In this document: one piece after another, positions 305 to 5,225 of the stretch | Layout: the number at the start of each line of letters is the position of its first letter | How positions within the stretch are numbered: the stretch's first letter is position 1 | Sequence record: PV588651.1 | Strand: one strand, 5' to 3' | Length of the DNA stretch: 15,773 nucleotides | DNA from: Klebsiella phage AKM-TASP09 | Translations under genes and position numbers: made by a program | The notes under the pieces: generated by a model | The model's input: the letters and a program-made list of their open reading frames with translations, nothing else | The model's database searches: none | What the model was told of the DNA's origin: nothing

Positions 305-799
305 ATGAAATCTCGCGAATACCTCAACACCCTTAATGGCTTGATTTACTGGCTGGAAGGTGGCGAAGTGATGATGCACAAGCGCGAAGGAACAAAAGTA
401 ATGCGGTCGACAATGACGGCAGCAATCTTCTTCGAAAAGGTCGGCAACGATACGCTGATTCTGGTTGAGCCGGAGCCGGAGCAAAAGAGCATGACCATGA
501 ACGAATTCTCTAACTTCCTGGCTGGCATCGACAAAAGCACCACGACTGCAACCGCACAGACGGCCATCCAGGGCGGGGCCACCCACATTGCCATCGACGG
601 TAACGGCGACGTCTTCGCATTCAAGATGCGCCCGCGCCACTGCCTGCCGAAAGATGATGACGCAAATGATTACCTGGGCGAATGGCTTCGCGGGTCGGAG
701 CAGTACGGCCACATTGCGCGAACAGTCTGCTTCCTGGGCAACACTGGCCGCGAGCACCGCAACTGGCGGGAACTCTGCTTCCAGATCCCACAGCAATAG
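305..799 (+). CDS. hypothetical protein (164 aa), sole gene of cassette A
   Basis: GGAG sits 7 nt upstream. ORF of 164 aa ends with TAG 797-799, which is embedded in the next boundary motif. No recognisable domain. Confidence 0.7.
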   Translation: MKSREYLNTLNGLIYWLEGGEVMMHKREGTKVMRSTMTAAIFFEKVGNDTLILVEPEPEQKSMTMNEFSNFLAGIDKSTTTATAQTAIQGGATHIAIDGNGDVFAFKMRPRHCLPKDDDANDYLGEWLRGSEQYGHIARTVCFLGNTGREHRNWRELCFQIPQQ

Positions 800-867
800 C
801 ACTTTTTGTTAAAACGCAATCGGGGTGATGCGCTATCATTACCCCATCGAAACAGAGGAGCATAAAC
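797..867 (+). promoter_or_regulatory. Cassette-boundary element copy B: TAG-CACTTTTTGTTAAAAC (797-815), inverted repeat GGGGT(822-826)/ACCCC(841-845) flanking TATCAT (834-839), leader ACCCCATCGAAACAGAGGAG
   Basis: TTGTTA at 806-811 and TATCAT at 834-839, a 22-bp spacer. The 5-bp inverted repeat encloses the -10-like hexamer. GAGGAG at 855-860, ATG at 868. Confidence 0.7.
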
Positions 868-1080
868 ATGATCGGCAACCATAACAACCCACTCAATTCA
901 GCATTTCACCGTCGCGCGGTAGAGCAACACTTCCACGCGCTGAAGGTGGTTTGCAACGAGATGAATCTTATGCTTGACCTGCCGTCATGGGATGCGCAAC
1001 TGGAAGATTACTATGATGGCCTGCGCGCTAAACGGGATGGCATTATTACCCGCCTGCGCCTGGCTGGTATGTTCTTATAG
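868..1080 (+). CDS. hypothetical protein (70 aa)
   Basis: GAGGAG lies 7 nt upstream and the gene ends in TAG. It is the first gene of cassette B. Confidence 0.65.
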   Translation: MIGNHNNPLNSAFHRRAVEQHFHALKVVCNEMNLMLDLPSWDAQLEDYYDGLRAKRDGIITRLRLAGMFL

Positions 1081-1091
1081 GAGAAACAAAA

Positions 1092-1352
1092 ATGCAACAA
1101 TTCGAATCTCGCGGCAAGACCTACAACCTGCCAGACACCGCTACCCACGCCGCACCTGGTGCATGCGTCGGCTTGTACTTTAAGGATGGCGATAGCTGGT
1201 ACTTCATGGGTGATGTGATTGGGGATGTAACGGTAACGCCGAAGAAATGCGGATTACTCCTGGGCTTTTACGATCACGACGTGGTGGAGTTGAAGCCAAA
1301 GCGCGTACCGTTCGCCTTCTGGAATAAAATCAAAGGGGCGCTGTTCAAATGA
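1092..1352 (+). CDS. hypothetical protein (86 aa)
   Basis: AGGAG at 1079-1083 overlaps the upstream stop, 8 nt before ATG 1092. Confidence 0.65.
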   Translation: MQQFESRGKTYNLPDTATHAAPGACVGLYFKDGDSWYFMGDVIGDVTVTPKKCGLLLGFYDHDVVELKPKRVPFAFWNKIKGALFK

Positions 1353-1567
1353 GCGACCCGAAACTGCAAACGGTATGCTACCGCGATTCGGATGGCGATG
1401 AATTGGTCGTGTCGCCGTTCAGTGGTGGTTCTGCTGGCGTAGAGCTTATGGCGACCCACGATAGCGGTTGCTGCGTATTTGACGACCCGAAGGTAATCCG
1501 CGATCTGGCTAACCAGTTGCTGTCCGTCGCCGATGCCGTAGAGAGCGCACAAGGAGCGGAAAAATGA
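1349..1567 (+). CDS. hypothetical protein (72 aa), Cys-rich
   Basis: ATGA start/stop overlap with the upstream gene suggests translational coupling. Reads as a protein-like ORF. Confidence 0.55.
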   Translation: MSDPKLQTVCYRDSDGDELVVSPFSGGSAGVELMATHDSGCCVFDDPKVIRDLANQLLSVADAVESAQGAEK

Positions 1568-1761
1568 ACCAGTTCGAATATATGCATCGCGCACATAAAG
1601 CGCTTGCCATGTTCGCCTTTCACCTGGATATGAAAGTTATATCCGTGACCATTGAGGCCGGAAGTATTGAGATCTGCGGATTCGTTGGCGATTACTCATG
1701 CACCAGAACTTACACGTTCTCATCGCTCGCCTCCCTGGAGAGTCAGGCTTATGGCTTCTAA
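1564..1761 (+). CDS. hypothetical protein (65 aa)
   Basis: ATGA overlap with the upstream gene. AAGGAG lies 7 nt upstream. Confidence 0.6.
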   Translation: MNQFEYMHRAHKALAMFAFHLDMKVISVTIEAGSIEICGFVGDYSCTRTYTFSSLASLESQAYGF

Positions 1762-3434: not shown

Positions 3435-3514
3435 CACTTTTTGTTAAACCTGCCGTAACGTCATTTGGTAAAGTGGCGTTACTGAAGCGAAACAAACCAA
3501 TCAGGAGTTACACC
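3432..3514 (+). promoter_or_regulatory. Cassette-boundary element copy E: TAG-CACTTTTTGTTAAAC, inverted repeat GTAACG(3455-3460)/CGTTAC(3477-3482) flanking TGgTAAAGT (3469-3474), leader GAAGCGAAACAAACCAATCAGGAG
   Basis: TTGTTA at 3441-3446 and TAAAGT at 3469-3474, a 22-bp spacer. TG at 3466-3467. The 6-bp inverted repeat has a 16-nt loop. Confidence 0.7.
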
Positions 3515-3724
3515 ATGAATGACCACATTATCGACCTGTTAAGCATGCTGGCTGAGGATACCGTAGCCGTCATCGAGCTTGAGGACGGAACCGAACTTCA
3601 GATCGAGGTTCCCAGCGTGCGATTCTGCGTATCCGGCGGCGAGCATTCCGAGCGCTCAACCGAAACGGATCTTGACTACGCGACCCACTTACTATGCCTG
3701 AACGCGATCGAGGAGATCCGCTAA
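3515..3724 (+). CDS. hypothetical acidic protein (69 aa; the ORF-track start 3473 lies inside the boundary element)
   Basis: CAGGAG lies 8 nt upstream of ATG 3515. The leader is homologous to that of cassette G. Confidence 0.6.
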   Translation: MNDHIIDLLSMLAEDTVAVIELEDGTELQIEVPSVRFCVSGGEHSERSTETDLDYATHLLCLNAIEEIR

Positions 3725-4158
3725 TGAACACAATCAAACTGAAATGCGTGTCAGTCGAGTCGCTCGTTAGCATCTCCTGTAAGCCTGGCGATATCATCAC
3801 TGCCAGCCGGGATAACGAATTCTCATGCTGGCACTTCGACGGATACTACCTGGATGATGATCTGGTGGTTCGCGGCATATTCGGTGAGTTCGCGCGGTTC
3901 GAGGTAGCGAAGCGCAAGACCGATCGCAAACTGGTGGTTCGCGCAATGTGCATCATCGCCCGCCAGTATGGATGGACTGACGCAGGAGTTAAGCGCGTCG
4001 GCAACTACAAAACCGTCAAGGAGTGGGCGCGGGATTGGGCCGCATTCTACACCGACGAAAAAGGCGAGCTTCAGCACGATATCAGCGAGTACCTGGAGGA
4101 TTACAGTCGTGGCGATGCCGTCCGCGAGTTCATGCAGGCAGAAATCGACGCCCTATAG
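3724..4158 (+). CDS. hypothetical protein (144 aa)
   Basis: TAATG overlap with the upstream gene and GAGGAG 9 nt upstream. The ORF-track start 3694 would overlap the upstream gene. Ends in TAG 4156-4158 inside boundary copy F. Confidence 0.65.
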   Translation: MNTIKLKCVSVESLVSISCKPGDIITASRDNEFSCWHFDGYYLDDDLVVRGIFGEFARFEVAKRKTDRKLVVRAMCIIARQYGWTDAGVKRVGNYKTVKEWARDWAAFYTDEKGELQHDISEYLEDYSRGDAVREFMQAEIDAL

Positions 4159-4229
4159 CACTTTTTGTTAAAACAACCTTCCGGGCCTGCGGTATAGTAG
4201 GCCCACACCAACCAAATGAGGATACTAAA
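4156..4229 (+). promoter_or_regulatory. Cassette-boundary element copy F: TAG-CACTTTTTGTTAAAAC, inverted repeat GGGCCT(4183-4188)/AGGCCC(4199-4204) flanking TATAGT (4193-4198), leader CACACCAACCAAATGAGGA
   Basis: TTGTTA at 4165-4170 and TATAGT at 4193-4198, a 22-bp spacer. The 6-bp inverted repeat has a 10-nt loop. Confidence 0.7.
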
Positions 4230-4874
4230 ATGCTGACCATTAAAACCATTGCTTTCCCGGCACGCTTCTACACCAATCCCGATAATCGTGGCGAGTTCAT
4301 CGACTACAAAGACGACAATTCAAAAGGCAAGTGGTTCGATGGCGGTGAAAGCAATATCCCGCTGGGCTACTTCATTTGCAAGCATAACGTATTCAACAAG
4401 GGCAACGTCCCGGAGCGACCTTACCAGTATGCTACTCTCATGGGATCGGCTATTGCATGCCCAACAATCAAGCAGGCTCTGGACTACGCAGTGGAAACTG
4501 CTCACAACATGTTCGGTCGGAACGAGTCTCGCGGGATTGTGAATCGCGCCATCGTCCACGGCTACGGCGAGCCGCAGGAGTTGAGAATCCTTCCCGGCGA
4601 AATCAAAGCGACCAAGATTAAGGCTGGCGGATTCGAAGTGCGCCGCGACGGCAGTGTGCTGATTAACGATGCTGTCATTCGCGGGGAGGTTTACGCAACT
4701 ACCTTCAAGGAGAAAGATCGTATCAAAGAGCTTGAGGAGCAGGTTGATTTCCTGACTGGTCAACTCGAAGCGGTATCAAAAGCCATGAGAAGCAACGGTG
4801 AAAACGTCGTCACTCACGCCAAGGTGTTGCGTCAAATGGCCGACGCACTGGTTAATATCTGGCGCGGCGAATAA
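4230..4874 (+). CDS. hypothetical protein (214 aa) with a C-terminal coiled-coil-like segment; sole gene of cassette F
   Basis: ATG 4230 is preceded by GAGGA 8 nt upstream. The ORF-track start 4023 would run through the boundary element and the upstream gene. Ends TAA, followed immediately by the TAG of boundary copy G. Confidence 0.65.
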   Translation: MLTIKTIAFPARFYTNPDNRGEFIDYKDDNSKGKWFDGGESNIPLGYFICKHNVFNKGNVPERPYQYATLMGSAIACPTIKQALDYAVETAHNMFGRNESRGIVNRAIVHGYGEPQELRILPGEIKATKIKAGGFEVRRDGSVLINDAVIRGEVYATTFKEKDRIKELEEQVDFLTGQLEAVSKAMRSNGENVVTHAKVLRQMADALVNIWRGE

Positions 4875-4952
4875 TAGCACGAATTGCTAAACCTTCCGCA
4901 AGGGCATTTGATATAGTGCCCTTATTGAAGCAACCAATCAGGAGATAACGAA
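4872..4952 (+). promoter_or_regulatory. Cassette-boundary element copy G: TAA-TAG-CACGAATTGCTAAAC, inverted repeat AGGGCA(4901-4906)/TGCCCT(4917-4922) flanking TGaTATAGT (4912-4917), leader GAAGCAACCAATCAGGAG
   Basis: TTGCTA at 4884-4889 and TATAGT at 4912-4917, a 22-bp spacer. TG at 4909-4910. The 6-bp inverted repeat has a 10-nt loop. Confidence 0.7.
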
Positions 4953-5225
4953 ATGAGCATTCCATACCCGAGCGCAGATAAAAGCTTTCTCGGCCTGGCG
5001 GTGGTCGAGATCATCAACCCTAACATTACGCACTCCCCGGATGAGCCTACCCTTGCACAGTGGGCCGGATTTAAAGCAGGTGATCGACTGACCGTAGAAT
5101 GCTATAGCGACGGCGAGAAGTGGGCGCAGGTAGGGCGCGACTACCACACCGAAGAATTCGGCCAGGTGCTCCCTACCGACTGGTTCAAACTTAACGAAGG
5201 CGAATACAAGGTGATCGAAGAATGA
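4953..5225 (+). CDS. hypothetical protein (90 aa)
   Basis: AGGAG lies 8 nt upstream. Confidence 0.65.
   Translation: MSIPYPSADKSFLGLAVVEIINPNITHSPDEPTLAQWAGFKAGDRLTVECYSDGEKWAQVGRDYHTEEFGQVLPTDWFKLNEGEYKVIEE

What the first reader, a model, noticed from the sequence alone, without database searches (positions are those of the whole stretch)
305..5225. Array of about 17 small early ORFs of unknown function, candidate host-takeover or anti-defence cassettes
None of the proteins encoded between 305 and 5225 (59-214 aa) shows a motif I can assign. They are organised as independently promoted cassettes next to the structural module. In lytic phages, variable anti-defence and host-shutoff genes are typically located in exactly this kind of region. 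The repeated boundary units would make such cassettes easy to exchange by homologous recombination. Single-gene cassettes such as 305..799 and 4230..4874 are obvious candidates for individually acquired functions.
Basis: inference. Interest (0 to 1): 0.7.

Follow-up and report, generated by a model that had tools for sequence, protein, structure and literature searches.

The report
Shuffled accessory gene cassettes in Klebsiella phage
This is the variable accessory-gene region of a common T1-like Klebsiella phage: 15 real small genes of unknown function in seven cassettes bounded by a known repeated regulatory unit where related phages swap cassettes, with no evidence for any anti-defence or host-takeover role.

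Summary
The window comes from a Klebsiella Webervirus (T1-like siphovirus), about 95-96% identical to many sequenced phages. Positions 305-5225 hold 15 plus-strand genes (not about 17) of 59-214 aa. All are under purifying selection.

None has an assignable function. Pfam gives only DUF7274. NCBIfam, PADLOC and a PDB sequence search give nothing. PHROGs returns unknown-function families plus one unsupported 'transcriptional regulator' label. Two AlphaFold attempts gave no informative fold match.

The genes form seven cassettes. Each starts with a ~75-nt unit: upstream stop codon in ATAGCAC-n3-TTGnTAAA, exactly 22 nt, a -10-like hexamer inside a hairpin, a C/A-rich leader, SD and ATG. The repeat is already published for T1-like phage TLS. 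Its anatomy matches the 'PeSL' promoter/stem-loop cassettes of T4-like phages.

Comparative data support variability and exchange at the units:
- 305-799 is full-length in 114 records, against 348 with a closely related portal.
- The 4230-4874 allele is in 14.
- 12 of 27 homology breakpoints fall in units.
- Phage LZ2044 carries one chimeric unit where the window has unit-gene-unit.

Early timing and independent promotion are plausible but unproven, because there is no canonical -35. Anti-defence or host-takeover function is pure inference. This is an ordinary example of a known kind.

The parts
2..232 (+). 3' part of an upstream small gene that runs off the window start. Its stop codon TAG (230-232) lies inside boundary unit 1.
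   Evidence: Read directly from the sequence. The homologous 216-nt gene is annotated in PWKp20.
228..304 (+). Boundary unit 1: AATAGCAC-ttt-TTGTTA, 22 nt, TATAGT (preceded by TGn), hairpin around the -10, ATCGAAAC leader, SD GGAG.
   Evidence: hairpin -10.1 kcal/mol, z -1.6.
305..799 (+). 164-aa gene forming a single-gene cassette. It is a presence/absence cassette. It is a fusion of an N-module (residues 1-57) and a C-module (61-164) that occur as stand-alone ORFs elsewhere.
   Evidence: phrog_18792, unknown function. Present in 4 of 12 sampled relatives. Full-length in 114 phage records. Only 15 hits among 1.84 billion representative proteins. pN/pS 0.33.
795..867 (+). Boundary unit 2: -10-like TATCAT, stem GGGGTGATG/CATTACCCC.
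   Evidence: -14.2 kcal/mol, z -3.0. The body of this unit forms the chimeric unit of LZ2044.
868..1080 (+). 70-aa gene, first of a six-gene cassette. Databases label it 'transcriptional regulator', but it has no Pfam domain.
   Evidence: phrog_10377. No Pfam hit above cut-off. Present in 9 of 12 relatives.
1092..1352 (+). 86-aa gene with a DUF7274 match.
   Evidence: 26.2 bits against a cut-off of 24.5. Present in 7 of 12 relatives.
1349..1567 (+). 72-aa acidic protein (net charge -8).
   Evidence: Present in 6 of 12 relatives.
1564..1761 (+). 65-aa gene.
   Evidence: Present in 6 of 12 relatives.
1751..1960 (+). 69-aa basic protein (pI 10.9). A 61%-identical homologue occurs in the rV5-like myovirus A5-4.
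   Evidence: phrog_2010.. Present in 5 of 12 relatives.
1956..2030 (+). Boundary unit 3 ('GAA' subtype, TTGCTA; TGG-TATAGT; stem GGGGTA/TACCCC).
2031..2243 (+). 70-aa gene. A full-length 41%-identical homologue sits in a PeSL-flanked single-gene cassette of a Krischvirus (RB49-like T4-type phage).
   Evidence: Present in 6 of 12 relatives.
2243..2560 (+). 105-aa all-beta protein.
2556..2629 (+). Boundary unit 4 (TTGGTA; -10-like CATAAT). Here the hairpin lies between the TTGGTA box and the -10.
2630..3001 (+). 123-aa basic protein (net charge +10).
   Evidence: Present in 10 of 12 relatives.
3013..3258 (+). 81-aa acidic protein.
   Evidence: Present in 11 of 12 relatives.
3255..3434 (+). 59-aa protein with two hydrophobic segments and a basic tail. 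Possibly a small membrane protein.
   Evidence: maximum 19-residue hydropathy 1.53.
3430..3514 (+). Boundary unit 5 (TGG-TAAAGT; 12-bp stem GTAACGTCATTT/AAGTGGCGTTAC).
   Evidence: -15.4 kcal/mol, z -2.9.
3515..3724 (+). 69-aa very acidic protein (net charge -13, 23% D+E).
   Evidence: Present in 7 of 12 relatives.
3724..4158 (+). 144-aa gene. The slot is occupied in all relatives, but by two alleles only 30-37% identical to each other.
   Evidence: breakpoint at about 3740.
4154..4229 (+). Boundary unit 6 (stem GGGCCTGC/GTAGGCCC). It travels with the downstream gene: relatives with another allele have a different unit body.
   Evidence: -17.3 kcal/mol, z -3.4.
4230..4874 (+). 214-aa single-gene cassette in a hypervariable slot. 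Layout: variable N-terminal part, conserved NMFGRxESRGIVN motif, variable middle, conserved C-terminal helical hairpin.
   Evidence: this allele in 14 records. AF2 pLDDT 46, unusable. Right breakpoint at 4812 or 4873.
4873..4952 (+). Boundary unit 7 (TGA-TATAGT; stem AGGGCAT/GTGCCCTT). The upstream gene ends TAA immediately before the unit's TAG.
   Evidence: -16.0 kcal/mol, z -4.1.
4953..5225 (+). 90-aa acidic protein. Its stop overlaps the start of the next gene (ATGA).
   Evidence: Present in 8 of 12 relatives.
5222..5797 (+). 191-aa dATP/dGTP pyrophosphohydrolase domain protein ('Eaa-like/DUF550'), in the same cassette as 4953-5225. It lies outside the finding and is conserved in all relatives.
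   Evidence: PF04447, E = 2.9e-31. Present in 12 of 12 relatives.
6910..6934 (+). Intrinsic terminator (AACCCGC-TTCG-GCGGGTT followed by T7) that closes the small-gene arm before the packaging genes.

Best explanation
The 15 ORFs are the dispensable, horizontally shuffled accessory genes of one of the two divergent small-gene arms of a Webervirus genome.

They are organised as seven cassettes. Each cassette opens with a PeSL-type unit. The unit (i) supplies the stop codon of the preceding gene. It (ii) carries the conserved Drexlerviridae box ATAGCAC-n3-TTGnTAAA at about -50 to -35, and (iii) a -10-like hexamer in fixed register inside a hairpin. It (iv) also provides a C/A-rich leader, SD and ATG.

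Shown: the units and short gene junctions are the sites where relatives gain, lose or replace cassettes by homologous recombination.

Inferred: each unit is a host-sigma70 early promoter of the extended -10 / UP-element type. Its hairpin attenuates or processes read-through RNA, so that each cassette is expressed autonomously right after DNA entry.

Inferred, and weaker: the gene products act on the host or on competitors (take-over, anti-defence, exclusion). I cannot assign any single protein to a mechanism.
For: - Identity of the genome and conservation of the structural half.
- Real genes under purifying selection.
- Variable presence among 12 relatives.
- Variable presence in the whole phage collection: 305-799 full-length in 114 records and the 4230-4874 allele in 14, against 348 records with a portal of at least 80% identity. 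The concatenated array is at least 80% covered in only 38 of 436 records.
- Unit anatomy with an invariant 22-nt register and TGn before the hexamer in 4 of 7.
- Hairpins of -10 to -17 kcal/mol with different, complementary stems, z from -1.2 to -4.1, all seven negative.
- Breakpoints: 12 of 27 in units that make up 12.6% of the length (p = 4e-5), and 19 of 27 in units or gene junctions (p = 4e-8).
- LZ2044 has one chimeric unit, with the left flank of unit 1 and the body of unit 2, where the window has unit-gene-unit.
- In the whole genome of PWKp20 the units occur only in the two divergent small-gene arms, plus one coding-region match. On the other arm they bracket a cassette containing a DNA methylase.
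- A strong terminator separates the arm from the terminase genes.
- The same anatomy is described for PeSLs, where promoter and terminator activity were measured with lacZ fusions and mini-circles were detected: PMC2839356.
- The box itself is published for TLS, T1 and Rtp: PMC11447400.
- A homologue of 2031-2243 sits in a PeSL-flanked cassette of a Krischvirus.
Against: - No transcription data exist for this phage group in the literature I could search.
- The canonical sigma-70 scan calls none of the units. The hexamer at the -35 position matches TTGACA in only 2-3 of 6 bases. Three of the seven units lack TGn.
- The hairpins have no U-tract, so they are not classical intrinsic terminators.
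- The TLS authors themselves left the function of the repeat open: stoperator, enhancer site or UP element.
- No ORF matches any known anti-defence, toxin or take-over protein by sequence or fold.
- AntiDefenseFinder on related Weberviruses reports only an anti-RM gene in a subset.
- Several slots (2243-2560, 2630-3434, 3724-4158) are occupied in nearly all relatives, so not every gene is 'accessory' in the strict sense.
Confidence: 0.65

Rival explanations
1. The units are not promoters. They are binding sites for a phage or host regulator (stoperator- or enhancer-like) combined with RNA hairpins. In this reading the whole arm is one long operon driven from the divergent ~650-bp intergenic region upstream of the window. 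The cassettes are recombination modules but not independent transcription units.
For: - The ATAGCAC and TTGnTAAA boxes are far more conserved than a generic A/T-rich UP element. They lie 22 nt, not 17 nt, from the -10-like hexamer.
- The sigma-70 scan finds nothing at the units.
- The TLS paper proposes stoperator or enhancer roles and finds only three sigma-70 promoters in that genome.
- A large divergent intergenic region exists at the head of both arms in PWKp20.
Against: - A -10-like hexamer (TATAGT in four units; TATCAT, CATAAT and TAAAGT once each) is kept at exactly the same distance in all seven units, four with TGn.
- Krischvirus PeSLs of the same anatomy have a canonical TTGACA-17-TAACAT. 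Such PeSLs drove about 13,000 Miller units of lacZ.
- A unit that travels with its downstream gene (unit 6) fits a promoter better than an operator.
Confidence: 0.2
2. The ORFs are conserved core early functions (replication, recombination, nucleotide metabolism) that simply lack annotation.
For: - Some slots are occupied in 10-12 of 12 relatives: 2243-2560, 2630-3001, 3013-3258, 3255-3434 and 3724-4158.
- The neighbouring 5222-5797 gene is a nucleotide pyrophosphohydrolase.
Against: - Helicases, primase, exonuclease, recombinase and SSB are annotated elsewhere in PWKp20.
- Seven of the 15 genes are present in 7 or fewer of 12 relatives. An eighth, 4230-4874, is full-length in only 1 of 12.
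- 305-799 and the 4230-4874 allele occur in about 33% and 4% of related records.
- No enzyme or DNA-binding domain is detected.
Confidence: 0.05
3. The genes serve phage-phage competition or the fine-tuning of the phage's own cycle. Examples are superinfection exclusion, lysis timing, or regulators of the early-to-late switch. In this reading they do not counteract host defence systems.
For: - 3255-3434 looks like a small membrane protein.
- 868-1080 is widely labelled a regulator, though only by propagated annotation.
- T1 is known to encode an exclusion lipoprotein, Cor (PMC13164509).
- Accessory regions of phages are reported to hold both counter-defence and exclusion genes.
Against: There is no positive evidence either: no lipobox, no HTH domain and no match to Cor, Imm or Sie families in any library searched.
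Confidence: 0.1

Closest known systems
PeSLs (promoter-early stem-loops) and the ORFan cassettes they flank in hyperplastic regions of T4-like phages RB49/phi1, T4/PST and KVP40/nt-1 (Arbiol et al. 2010, PMC2839356; Comeau et al. 2014, PMC4122927)
   Same: - The order of elements matches: upstream stop codon in an A/T-rich stretch, promoter boxes, a GGGG...CCCC-type stem-loop overlapping the -10, then SD and ATG.
- The units sit upstream of small ORFans in the most variable part of the genome.
- Indels between close relatives are explained by recombination between neighbouring units.
- A Krischvirus PeSL cassette holds a homologue of 2031-2243.
- Slopekvirus Miro carries two units nearly identical to those of the window.
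   Different: - The host genome is a 50-kb T1-like siphovirus, not a T4-like myovirus.
- The -35 box is not canonical. A conserved ATAGCAC-n3-TTGnTAAA box lies 22 nt upstream of the -10, where Krischvirus PeSLs have TTGACA at 17 nt.
- Promoter activity, terminator activity and mini-circles have not been tested for these units.
The 21-nt intergenic direct repeat aaATAGCACnnnTTGnTAAAA of Drexlerviridae phage TLS, also noted in T1, Rtp and Rogue1 (PMC11447400)
   Same: - The consensus is the same, including the 'TTT' and 'GAA' subtypes.
[quoted passage not shown]
- It lies 71-83 nt upstream of start codons here, against about 76 nt in TLS.
   Different: The TLS paper describes only the 21-nt box and leaves its role open. 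Here the box is part of a longer ~75-nt unit that also includes a fixed-register -10-like hexamer, a hairpin and a leader. Here it is also shown to coincide with recombination breakpoints.
Phage 'accessory regions' rich in counter-defence genes (Silas et al., bioRxiv 10.1101/2023.04.06.535777)
   Same: The gene content is highly variable between conserved flanks in closely related phages, and the ORFs are small and of unknown function.
   Different: None of the ORFs here has been tested, and none resembles the controls used there (Ocr, ArdA, Abc2, Ral, Stp and others). The counter-defence role is by analogy only.

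Membership tests
PeSL-type regulatory cassette (Arbiol 2010) | Stop codon of the upstream gene embedded at the 5' end of the unit, in an A/T-rich stretch | tested here: met
   In 6 of 7 units the upstream gene ends on the TAG of ATAGCAC. In the seventh it ends on a TAA immediately before that TAG.
PeSL-type regulatory cassette (Arbiol 2010) | Sigma-70-like -35 and -10 boxes at canonical spacing | tested here: inconclusive
   A -10-like hexamer is present in all seven units, four with TGn. No canonical -35 is present: TTGnTA is 22 nt away, and the scan tool calls none of the units.
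PeSL-type regulatory cassette (Arbiol 2010) | Stable stem-loop between the boxes or overlapping the -10 | tested here: met
   All seven units fold at -10 to -17 kcal/mol. Six hairpins enclose or overlap the -10 and one lies between the boxes. Stems differ between copies but stay complementary.
PeSL-type regulatory cassette (Arbiol 2010) | Located upstream of ORFans in hyperplastic regions, with indels between relatives bounded by the units | tested here: met
PeSL-type regulatory cassette (Arbiol 2010) | Measured promoter and terminator activity, and PeSL mini-circles | not testable with these tools
   This needs reporter fusions and inverse PCR on infected cells.
PeSL-type regulatory cassette (Arbiol 2010) | Described host range of the element: T4-like myoviruses | tested here: not met
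   The window is from a Webervirus, family Drexlerviridae. Near-identical units do occur in the T4-like Slopekvirus Miro.
Drexlerviridae 21-nt direct repeat (TLS paper) | Consensus aaATAGCACnnnTTGnTAAAA, intergenic, co-oriented with transcription, about 76 nt upstream of the start codon | tested here: met
   Seven copies, all on the plus strand and all intergenic, 71-83 nt from TAG to ATG. Consensus.
Known anti-defence proteins (Ocr, ArdA, Acr, Tad, Gad, Acb and others) | Sequence or fold similarity to a characterised member | tested here: not met
   - A PDB sequence search of all 15 proteins gave 0 hits at E <= 10.
- Pfam and NCBIfam gave none.
- AntiDefenseFinder and dbAPIS could not be run here.
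- A published run on Weberviruses found only an anti-RM gene in a subset.
Phage accessory region (Silas et al.) | Variable gene content between conserved flanking genes among close relatives | tested here: met
Early gene class | Transcribed by unmodified host RNA polymerase in the first minutes of infection | not testable with these tools
   No Drexlerviridae transcriptome was found in the library. Only the position, the promoter-like units and the terminator before the packaging genes bear on this.

The most novel reading that the evidence does not exclude
The ATAGCAC/hairpin units may be a cross-family 'docking standard'. In this reading T1-like siphoviruses, T4-like myoviruses (Slopekvirus, Krischvirus) and perhaps rV5-like phages of enterobacteria share the same early promoter/stem-loop module and use it to trade self-expressing early cassettes.

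Under this reading, at least one cassette here would encode a new inhibitor of a Klebsiella defence system. The candidates are the hypervariable 4230-4874 slot and the very acidic 69-aa 3515-3724 protein.

Evidence that leaves this open:
- Units 81-85% identical over 59-66 nt occur in Slopekviruses.
- A homologue of 2031-2243 lies in a Krischvirus PeSL cassette.
- A 61%-identical homologue of 1751-1960 occurs in a Vequintavirinae phage.

Against it:
- Miro has only two such units in its first 50 kb, and they flank an ORFan found only in T4-like phages.
- No function has been shown for any ORF.
Probability: 0.25. Interest if true: 0.6.

Novelty: new member of a known kind. Interest (0 to 1): 0.3.

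Why it matters
Weberviruses are widely proposed for therapy against multidrug-resistant Klebsiella. This arm is where otherwise near-identical candidate phages differ most, so it may influence which strains a phage can grow on.

Knowing that the differences are whole cassettes bounded by a 75-nt unit gives a practical handle. Cassettes can be deleted, swapped or screened one at a time.

The link between the published Drexlerviridae repeat and the PeSLs of T4-like phages suggests one shared mechanism of early-region plasticity in unrelated virulent enterobacterial phages.

As it stands, the finding adds no function and describes a region present in hundreds of database genomes.

Tried and rejected
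- Canonical promoter reading (TTGnTA as the -35): rejected. The spacer is invariably 22 nt and the scan tool finds nothing.
- Classical intrinsic terminators at the units: rejected. No T-run follows the hairpins.
- AlphaFold2 of 4230-4874 with a 35-sequence alignment gave pLDDT 46 and pTM 0.19. I did not use it for fold search.
- Paralogy between the C-terminal half of 305-799 and 2243-2560, hinted at by a weak phrog_1972 hit: not supported by BLASTP.
- Homology between the genes downstream of near-identical units in Miro and in the window: none.
- Miro gp014, the gene flanked by the two units, is confined to T4-like phages. There is therefore no evidence that a whole cassette moved between the families at that site.
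- 'GntR-family regulator', 'heme oxygenase', 'site-specific recombinase' and 'methyltransferase' labels on orthologues in some GenBank records have no Pfam or NCBIfam support here. I disregarded them.
- Rfam and tRNA scans of the window found nothing.
- Literature searches for Drexlerviridae or Webervirus transcriptomes, or for tested early genes, found nothing.

Full report
**What the window is.** A megablast of the whole window finds 558 phage records. The best are Klebsiella siphoviruses of the genus Webervirus (Drexlerviridae, T1-like) at 95-96% identity over 96-97% of the window. From about 6900 onward the window encodes small and large terminase, portal, head and tail genes that are conserved across these phages.

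In the complete genome of the close relative PWKp20, the region matching 1-6900 is one of two divergent arms of small genes. The arms start at a ~650-bp intergenic region. The other arm carries small ORFs, a DNA methylase and a helicase. The replication and recombination genes (helicase, primase, exonuclease, recombinase, SSB) lie elsewhere.

**Checking the observation.** Between 305 and 5225 I plus-strand genes, not about 17. Their sizes are 59-214 aa, each has a Shine-Dalgarno-like sequence, and several have overlapping stop/start codons.

They are genuine genes:
- Every one matches a PHROG family.
- Pooled pN/pS against orthologues in up to 11 relatives is 0.11-0.60, comparable to 0.15 for the large terminase.

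'No assignable motif' holds up:
- Pfam gives only DUF7274 for 1092-1352.
- NCBIfam gives nothing above noise.
- PADLOC gives nothing.
- A phmmer search of all 15 proteins, concatenated, against every PDB sequence returns no hit even at E <= 10.
- The only functional PHROG label, 'transcriptional regulator' for 868-1080, has no domain support.

Just outside the finding, 5222-5797 is a PF04447 dATP/dGTP pyrophosphohydrolase (E = 2.9e-31). Its start overlaps the stop of 4953-5225.

**The boundary units.** Seven copies of a ~75-nt unit divide the array into cassettes of 1, 6, 2, 3, 2, 1 and two or more genes.

Aligned on their 5' end, all seven read TAGCAC-n3-TTGnTA-n22-hexamer. The hexamer is TATAGT in four units and TATCAT, CATAAT or TAAAGT in the others. 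Four of the seven are preceded by TGn. The TAG is the stop codon of the upstream gene in six units. In the seventh, a TAA sits immediately before it.

Because TTGnTA is 22 nt from the hexamer, it is not a canonical -35. The hexamer at the canonical position matches TTGACA in only 2-3 of 6 bases, and the consensus scan calls none of the units. The hairpins have no T-run.

'Independently promoted' is therefore plausible but not demonstrated. What speaks for it is the fixed-register -10, TGn in four units, and an A/T-rich conserved box where UP elements or activators bind.

**What is already known about the unit.** The 21-nt box aaATAGCACnnnTTGnTAAAA was published in 2024 for the T1-like phage TLS. 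That genome has 18 intergenic copies, about 76 nt upstream of start codons, in 'A', 'T' and 'G' subtypes. The same box was noted in T1, Rtp and Rogue1. Its function was left open: stoperator, enhancer site or UP element (PMC11447400). It was the only phage paper in the library that contained the motif.

Separately, the whole unit matches the published anatomy of PeSLs (promoter-early stem-loops) of T4-like phages. That anatomy runs: upstream stop codon in an A/T-rich stretch, promoter boxes, a GGGG...CCCC-type stem-loop most often overlapping the -10, SD, ATG. PeSLs lie upstream of ORFans in hyperplastic regions. In RB49/phi1 they showed promoter and terminator activity in lacZ fusions and produced recombination-generated mini-circles (PMC2839356; PMC4122927).

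I found direct sequence links:
- The T4-like Klebsiella phage Miro (Slopekvirus) has two units nearly identical to those of the window, including the 22-nt register and the ATCGAAAC leader.
- Such hits recur in many Slopekvirus records.
- A Krischvirus (the RB49/phi1 genus) has PeSLs with TTGACA-17-TAACAT, arms GGGAGTA/TACTCCC around the -10, and the same C/A-rich leader.

**Variability.** By tblastn against 12 Webervirus relatives chosen across the similarity range, presence is as follows:
- 305-799: 4 of 12.
- The genes between 1092 and 1960: 5-7 of 12.
- 2031-2243: 6 of 12.
- 3515-3724: 7 of 12.
- 4953-5225: 8 of 12.
- 868-1080: 9 of 12.
- 2243-2560 and 2630-3001: 10 of 12.
- 3013-3258 and 3255-3434: 11 of 12.
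- 3724-4158: 12 of 12, but as two alleles only 30-37% identical.
- 4230-4874: full-length in 1 of 12.
- Genes from 5222 onward: present in essentially all.

In the whole phage collection:
- 305-799 is full-length in 114 records.
- The 4230-4874 allele is in 14.
- By comparison, 348 records have a portal protein of at least 80% identity.
- The concatenated array is at least 80% covered in 38 of 436 matching records.

**Exchange at the units.** In blastn comparisons with the 12 relatives, 27 distinct homology breakpoints fall between 240 and 5300.
- Twelve lie in boundary units, which make up 12.6% of the length (binomial p = 4e-5).
- Nineteen lie in units or within 20 nt of a gene junction (p = 4e-8).
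- A caveat applies: a few of these ends come from cross-matches between paralogous units.

The clearest case is 305-799. Five relatives (LZ2044, KLPN1, FZ10, RCIP0004, NJS1) lack the gene and have a single unit in its place. In LZ2044 that unit has the left flank of unit 1 and the body of unit 2, with the crossover inside the shared ATAGCACTTTTTGTTAAAAC box. This is exactly the deletion/insertion product predicted by the PeSL model.

At 4230-4874, most relatives carry a different unit body and a different 250-aa gene. Homology resumes at 4812, inside the conserved last 20 codons, or at 4873. Other insertions sit at unit-less gene junctions (1079-1086, 2224-2243, 3003-3013, about 3740).

**The two single-gene cassettes.**

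*305-799.* Its homologues are confined to Webervirus-sized contigs. There are 170 hits, and the 120 listed are at least 84% identical. A filter-free HMMER scan of 1.84 billion representative proteins finds only 15 hits. These show that residues 1-57 and 61-164 exist elsewhere as separate 55-58-aa and 87-106-aa proteins, so the gene is a fusion of two small modules.

*4230-4874.* It belongs to a family with a variable N-terminal part, an invariant NMFGRxESRG motif, a variable middle and a conserved C-terminal helical hairpin. The slot is always filled, but by very different alleles. This pattern would fit diversifying selection, which I did not test. The AlphaFold2 model was too poor to use (pLDDT 46).

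Composition gives only hints:
- 3515-3724 is very acidic (net -13 in 69 aa).
- 1349-1567, 3013-3258 and 4953-5225 are acidic.
- 2630-3001 and 1751-1960 are basic.
- 3255-3434 has two hydrophobic segments.

Two genes have relatives outside the family. 2031-2243 is 41% identical to a Krischvirus ORF in a PeSL-flanked cassette. 1751-1960 is 61% identical to an ORF of the rV5-like phage A5-4.

A published AntiDefenseFinder analysis of Weberviruses reports only an anti-RM gene in a subset (PMC12629751). In PWKp20 a DNA methylase sits in a unit-bounded cassette on the other arm.

**Most likely mechanism.** The following are shown:
- These are real, variably present genes.
- They are arranged in cassettes bounded by a conserved unit.
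- The units and gene junctions are the exchange points.
- An intrinsic terminator (6910-6934) closes the arm before the packaging genes.

Inferred from anatomy and from PeSL experiments in other phages: each unit is a host-polymerase early promoter of the extended -10 / UP type. Its hairpin damps or processes read-through, so an incoming cassette brings its own expression signals and the stop codon for its upstream neighbour.

Inferred only from general knowledge of phage accessory regions: the products act in host take-over, counter-defence or inter-phage competition. I put about 0.65 on the overall picture. I put roughly 0.4-0.5 on at least one of the 15 being a counter-defence protein. I cannot name which.

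**Novelty and verdict.** The region is a typical hyperplastic accessory arm present in hundreds of sequenced Weberviruses. The repeat box is published, and cassette shuffling through promoter/stem-loop units is a known mechanism in T4-like phages.

Two points appear to be new, as far as the literature I could search shows. The first is the recognition that the Drexlerviridae repeat is part of a PeSL-type unit. The second is the direct comparative evidence that it mediates cassette gain and loss in a T1-like siphovirus. This makes it a new member of a known kind. Interest: 0.3.

Noticed in passing
window 6902-7507, 6910-6934 and 6984: The long ORF 6902-7507 is probably not the small-terminase gene as such. 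A strong intrinsic terminator (AACCCGCTTCGGCGGGTTTTTTT) lies at 6910-6934. It is followed by a TATACT -10-like box, GGAGG and an ATG at 6984. Relatives annotate a 525-nt TerS that corresponds to 6984-7507.
   Followed up: partly
window 305-799; proteins P0267, P0269, P0270, P0272, P0275 and P0277: The 164-aa protein is a fusion of two modules that occur as separate small ORFs in other phage contigs. These are an N-module of about 57 aa and a C-module of about 100 aa containing the motif GATH[IL]A[IV]D.[DN]G.[IV][FY]A[FY].
   Followed up: partly
window 4230-4874 and alignment A1: The slot holds a mosaic protein family. An invariant NMFGRxESRG motif and a conserved C-terminal HAKVLRxMADAL helix are separated by swapped segments. 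The recombination breakpoint at 4812 lies inside the conserved 3' coding end rather than in the next unit.
   Followed up: partly
L002 2648-2740 and 3003-3075 (Klebsiella phage Miro, Slopekvirus); L016: A T4-like myovirus carries two Drexlerviridae-type units. They flank one ORFan, gp014, which is itself found only in T4-like phages. No other strict copies occur in the first 50 kb of that genome. The direction of transfer, or convergence, is unresolved.
   Followed up: partly
L014 1700-1780, 2210-2285 and 2490-2570 (Krischvirus pEJ01): RB49-type PeSLs show TTGACA-17-TAACAT with arms GGGAGTA/TACTCCC around the -10, and the same C/A-rich leader as the window's units. One such cassette holds a 41%-identical homologue of window gene 2031-2243.
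   Followed up: yes
L015 1195-1401 (Escherichia phage A5-4, Vequintavirinae): A 61%-identical homologue of window gene 1751-1960 occurs in an rV5-like myovirus. About 300 nt upstream, ahead of the preceding gene, a GGGT...ACCC hairpin encloses a CATAAT box and is followed by TATCGACAA. This is a unit-like element without the ATAGCAC box.
   Followed up: no
window units at 230, 797, 1958, 2558, 3432 and 4156: TAG is used as the stop codon by all six genes that end in a unit. Of the other nine genes in the array, none uses TAG (they use TGA or TAA). So the unit, not the gene, appears to supply the stop.
   Followed up: partly
L009 10947-11459 (phage LZ2044): In this relative a homing endonuclease gene is annotated between the small and large terminase genes. 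It is absent from the window.
   Followed up: no
hits: About 10-20 records named 'Campylobacter phage' (47-50 kb) match T1-like sequences, including the boundary unit and the portal protein. They look like T1-like phages deposited under a Campylobacter label.
   Followed up: no
window 3515-3724: This 69-aa protein has a net charge of -13 (23% Asp+Glu). That is the kind of composition seen in DNA-mimic proteins, but there is no similarity to any of them.
   Followed up: no
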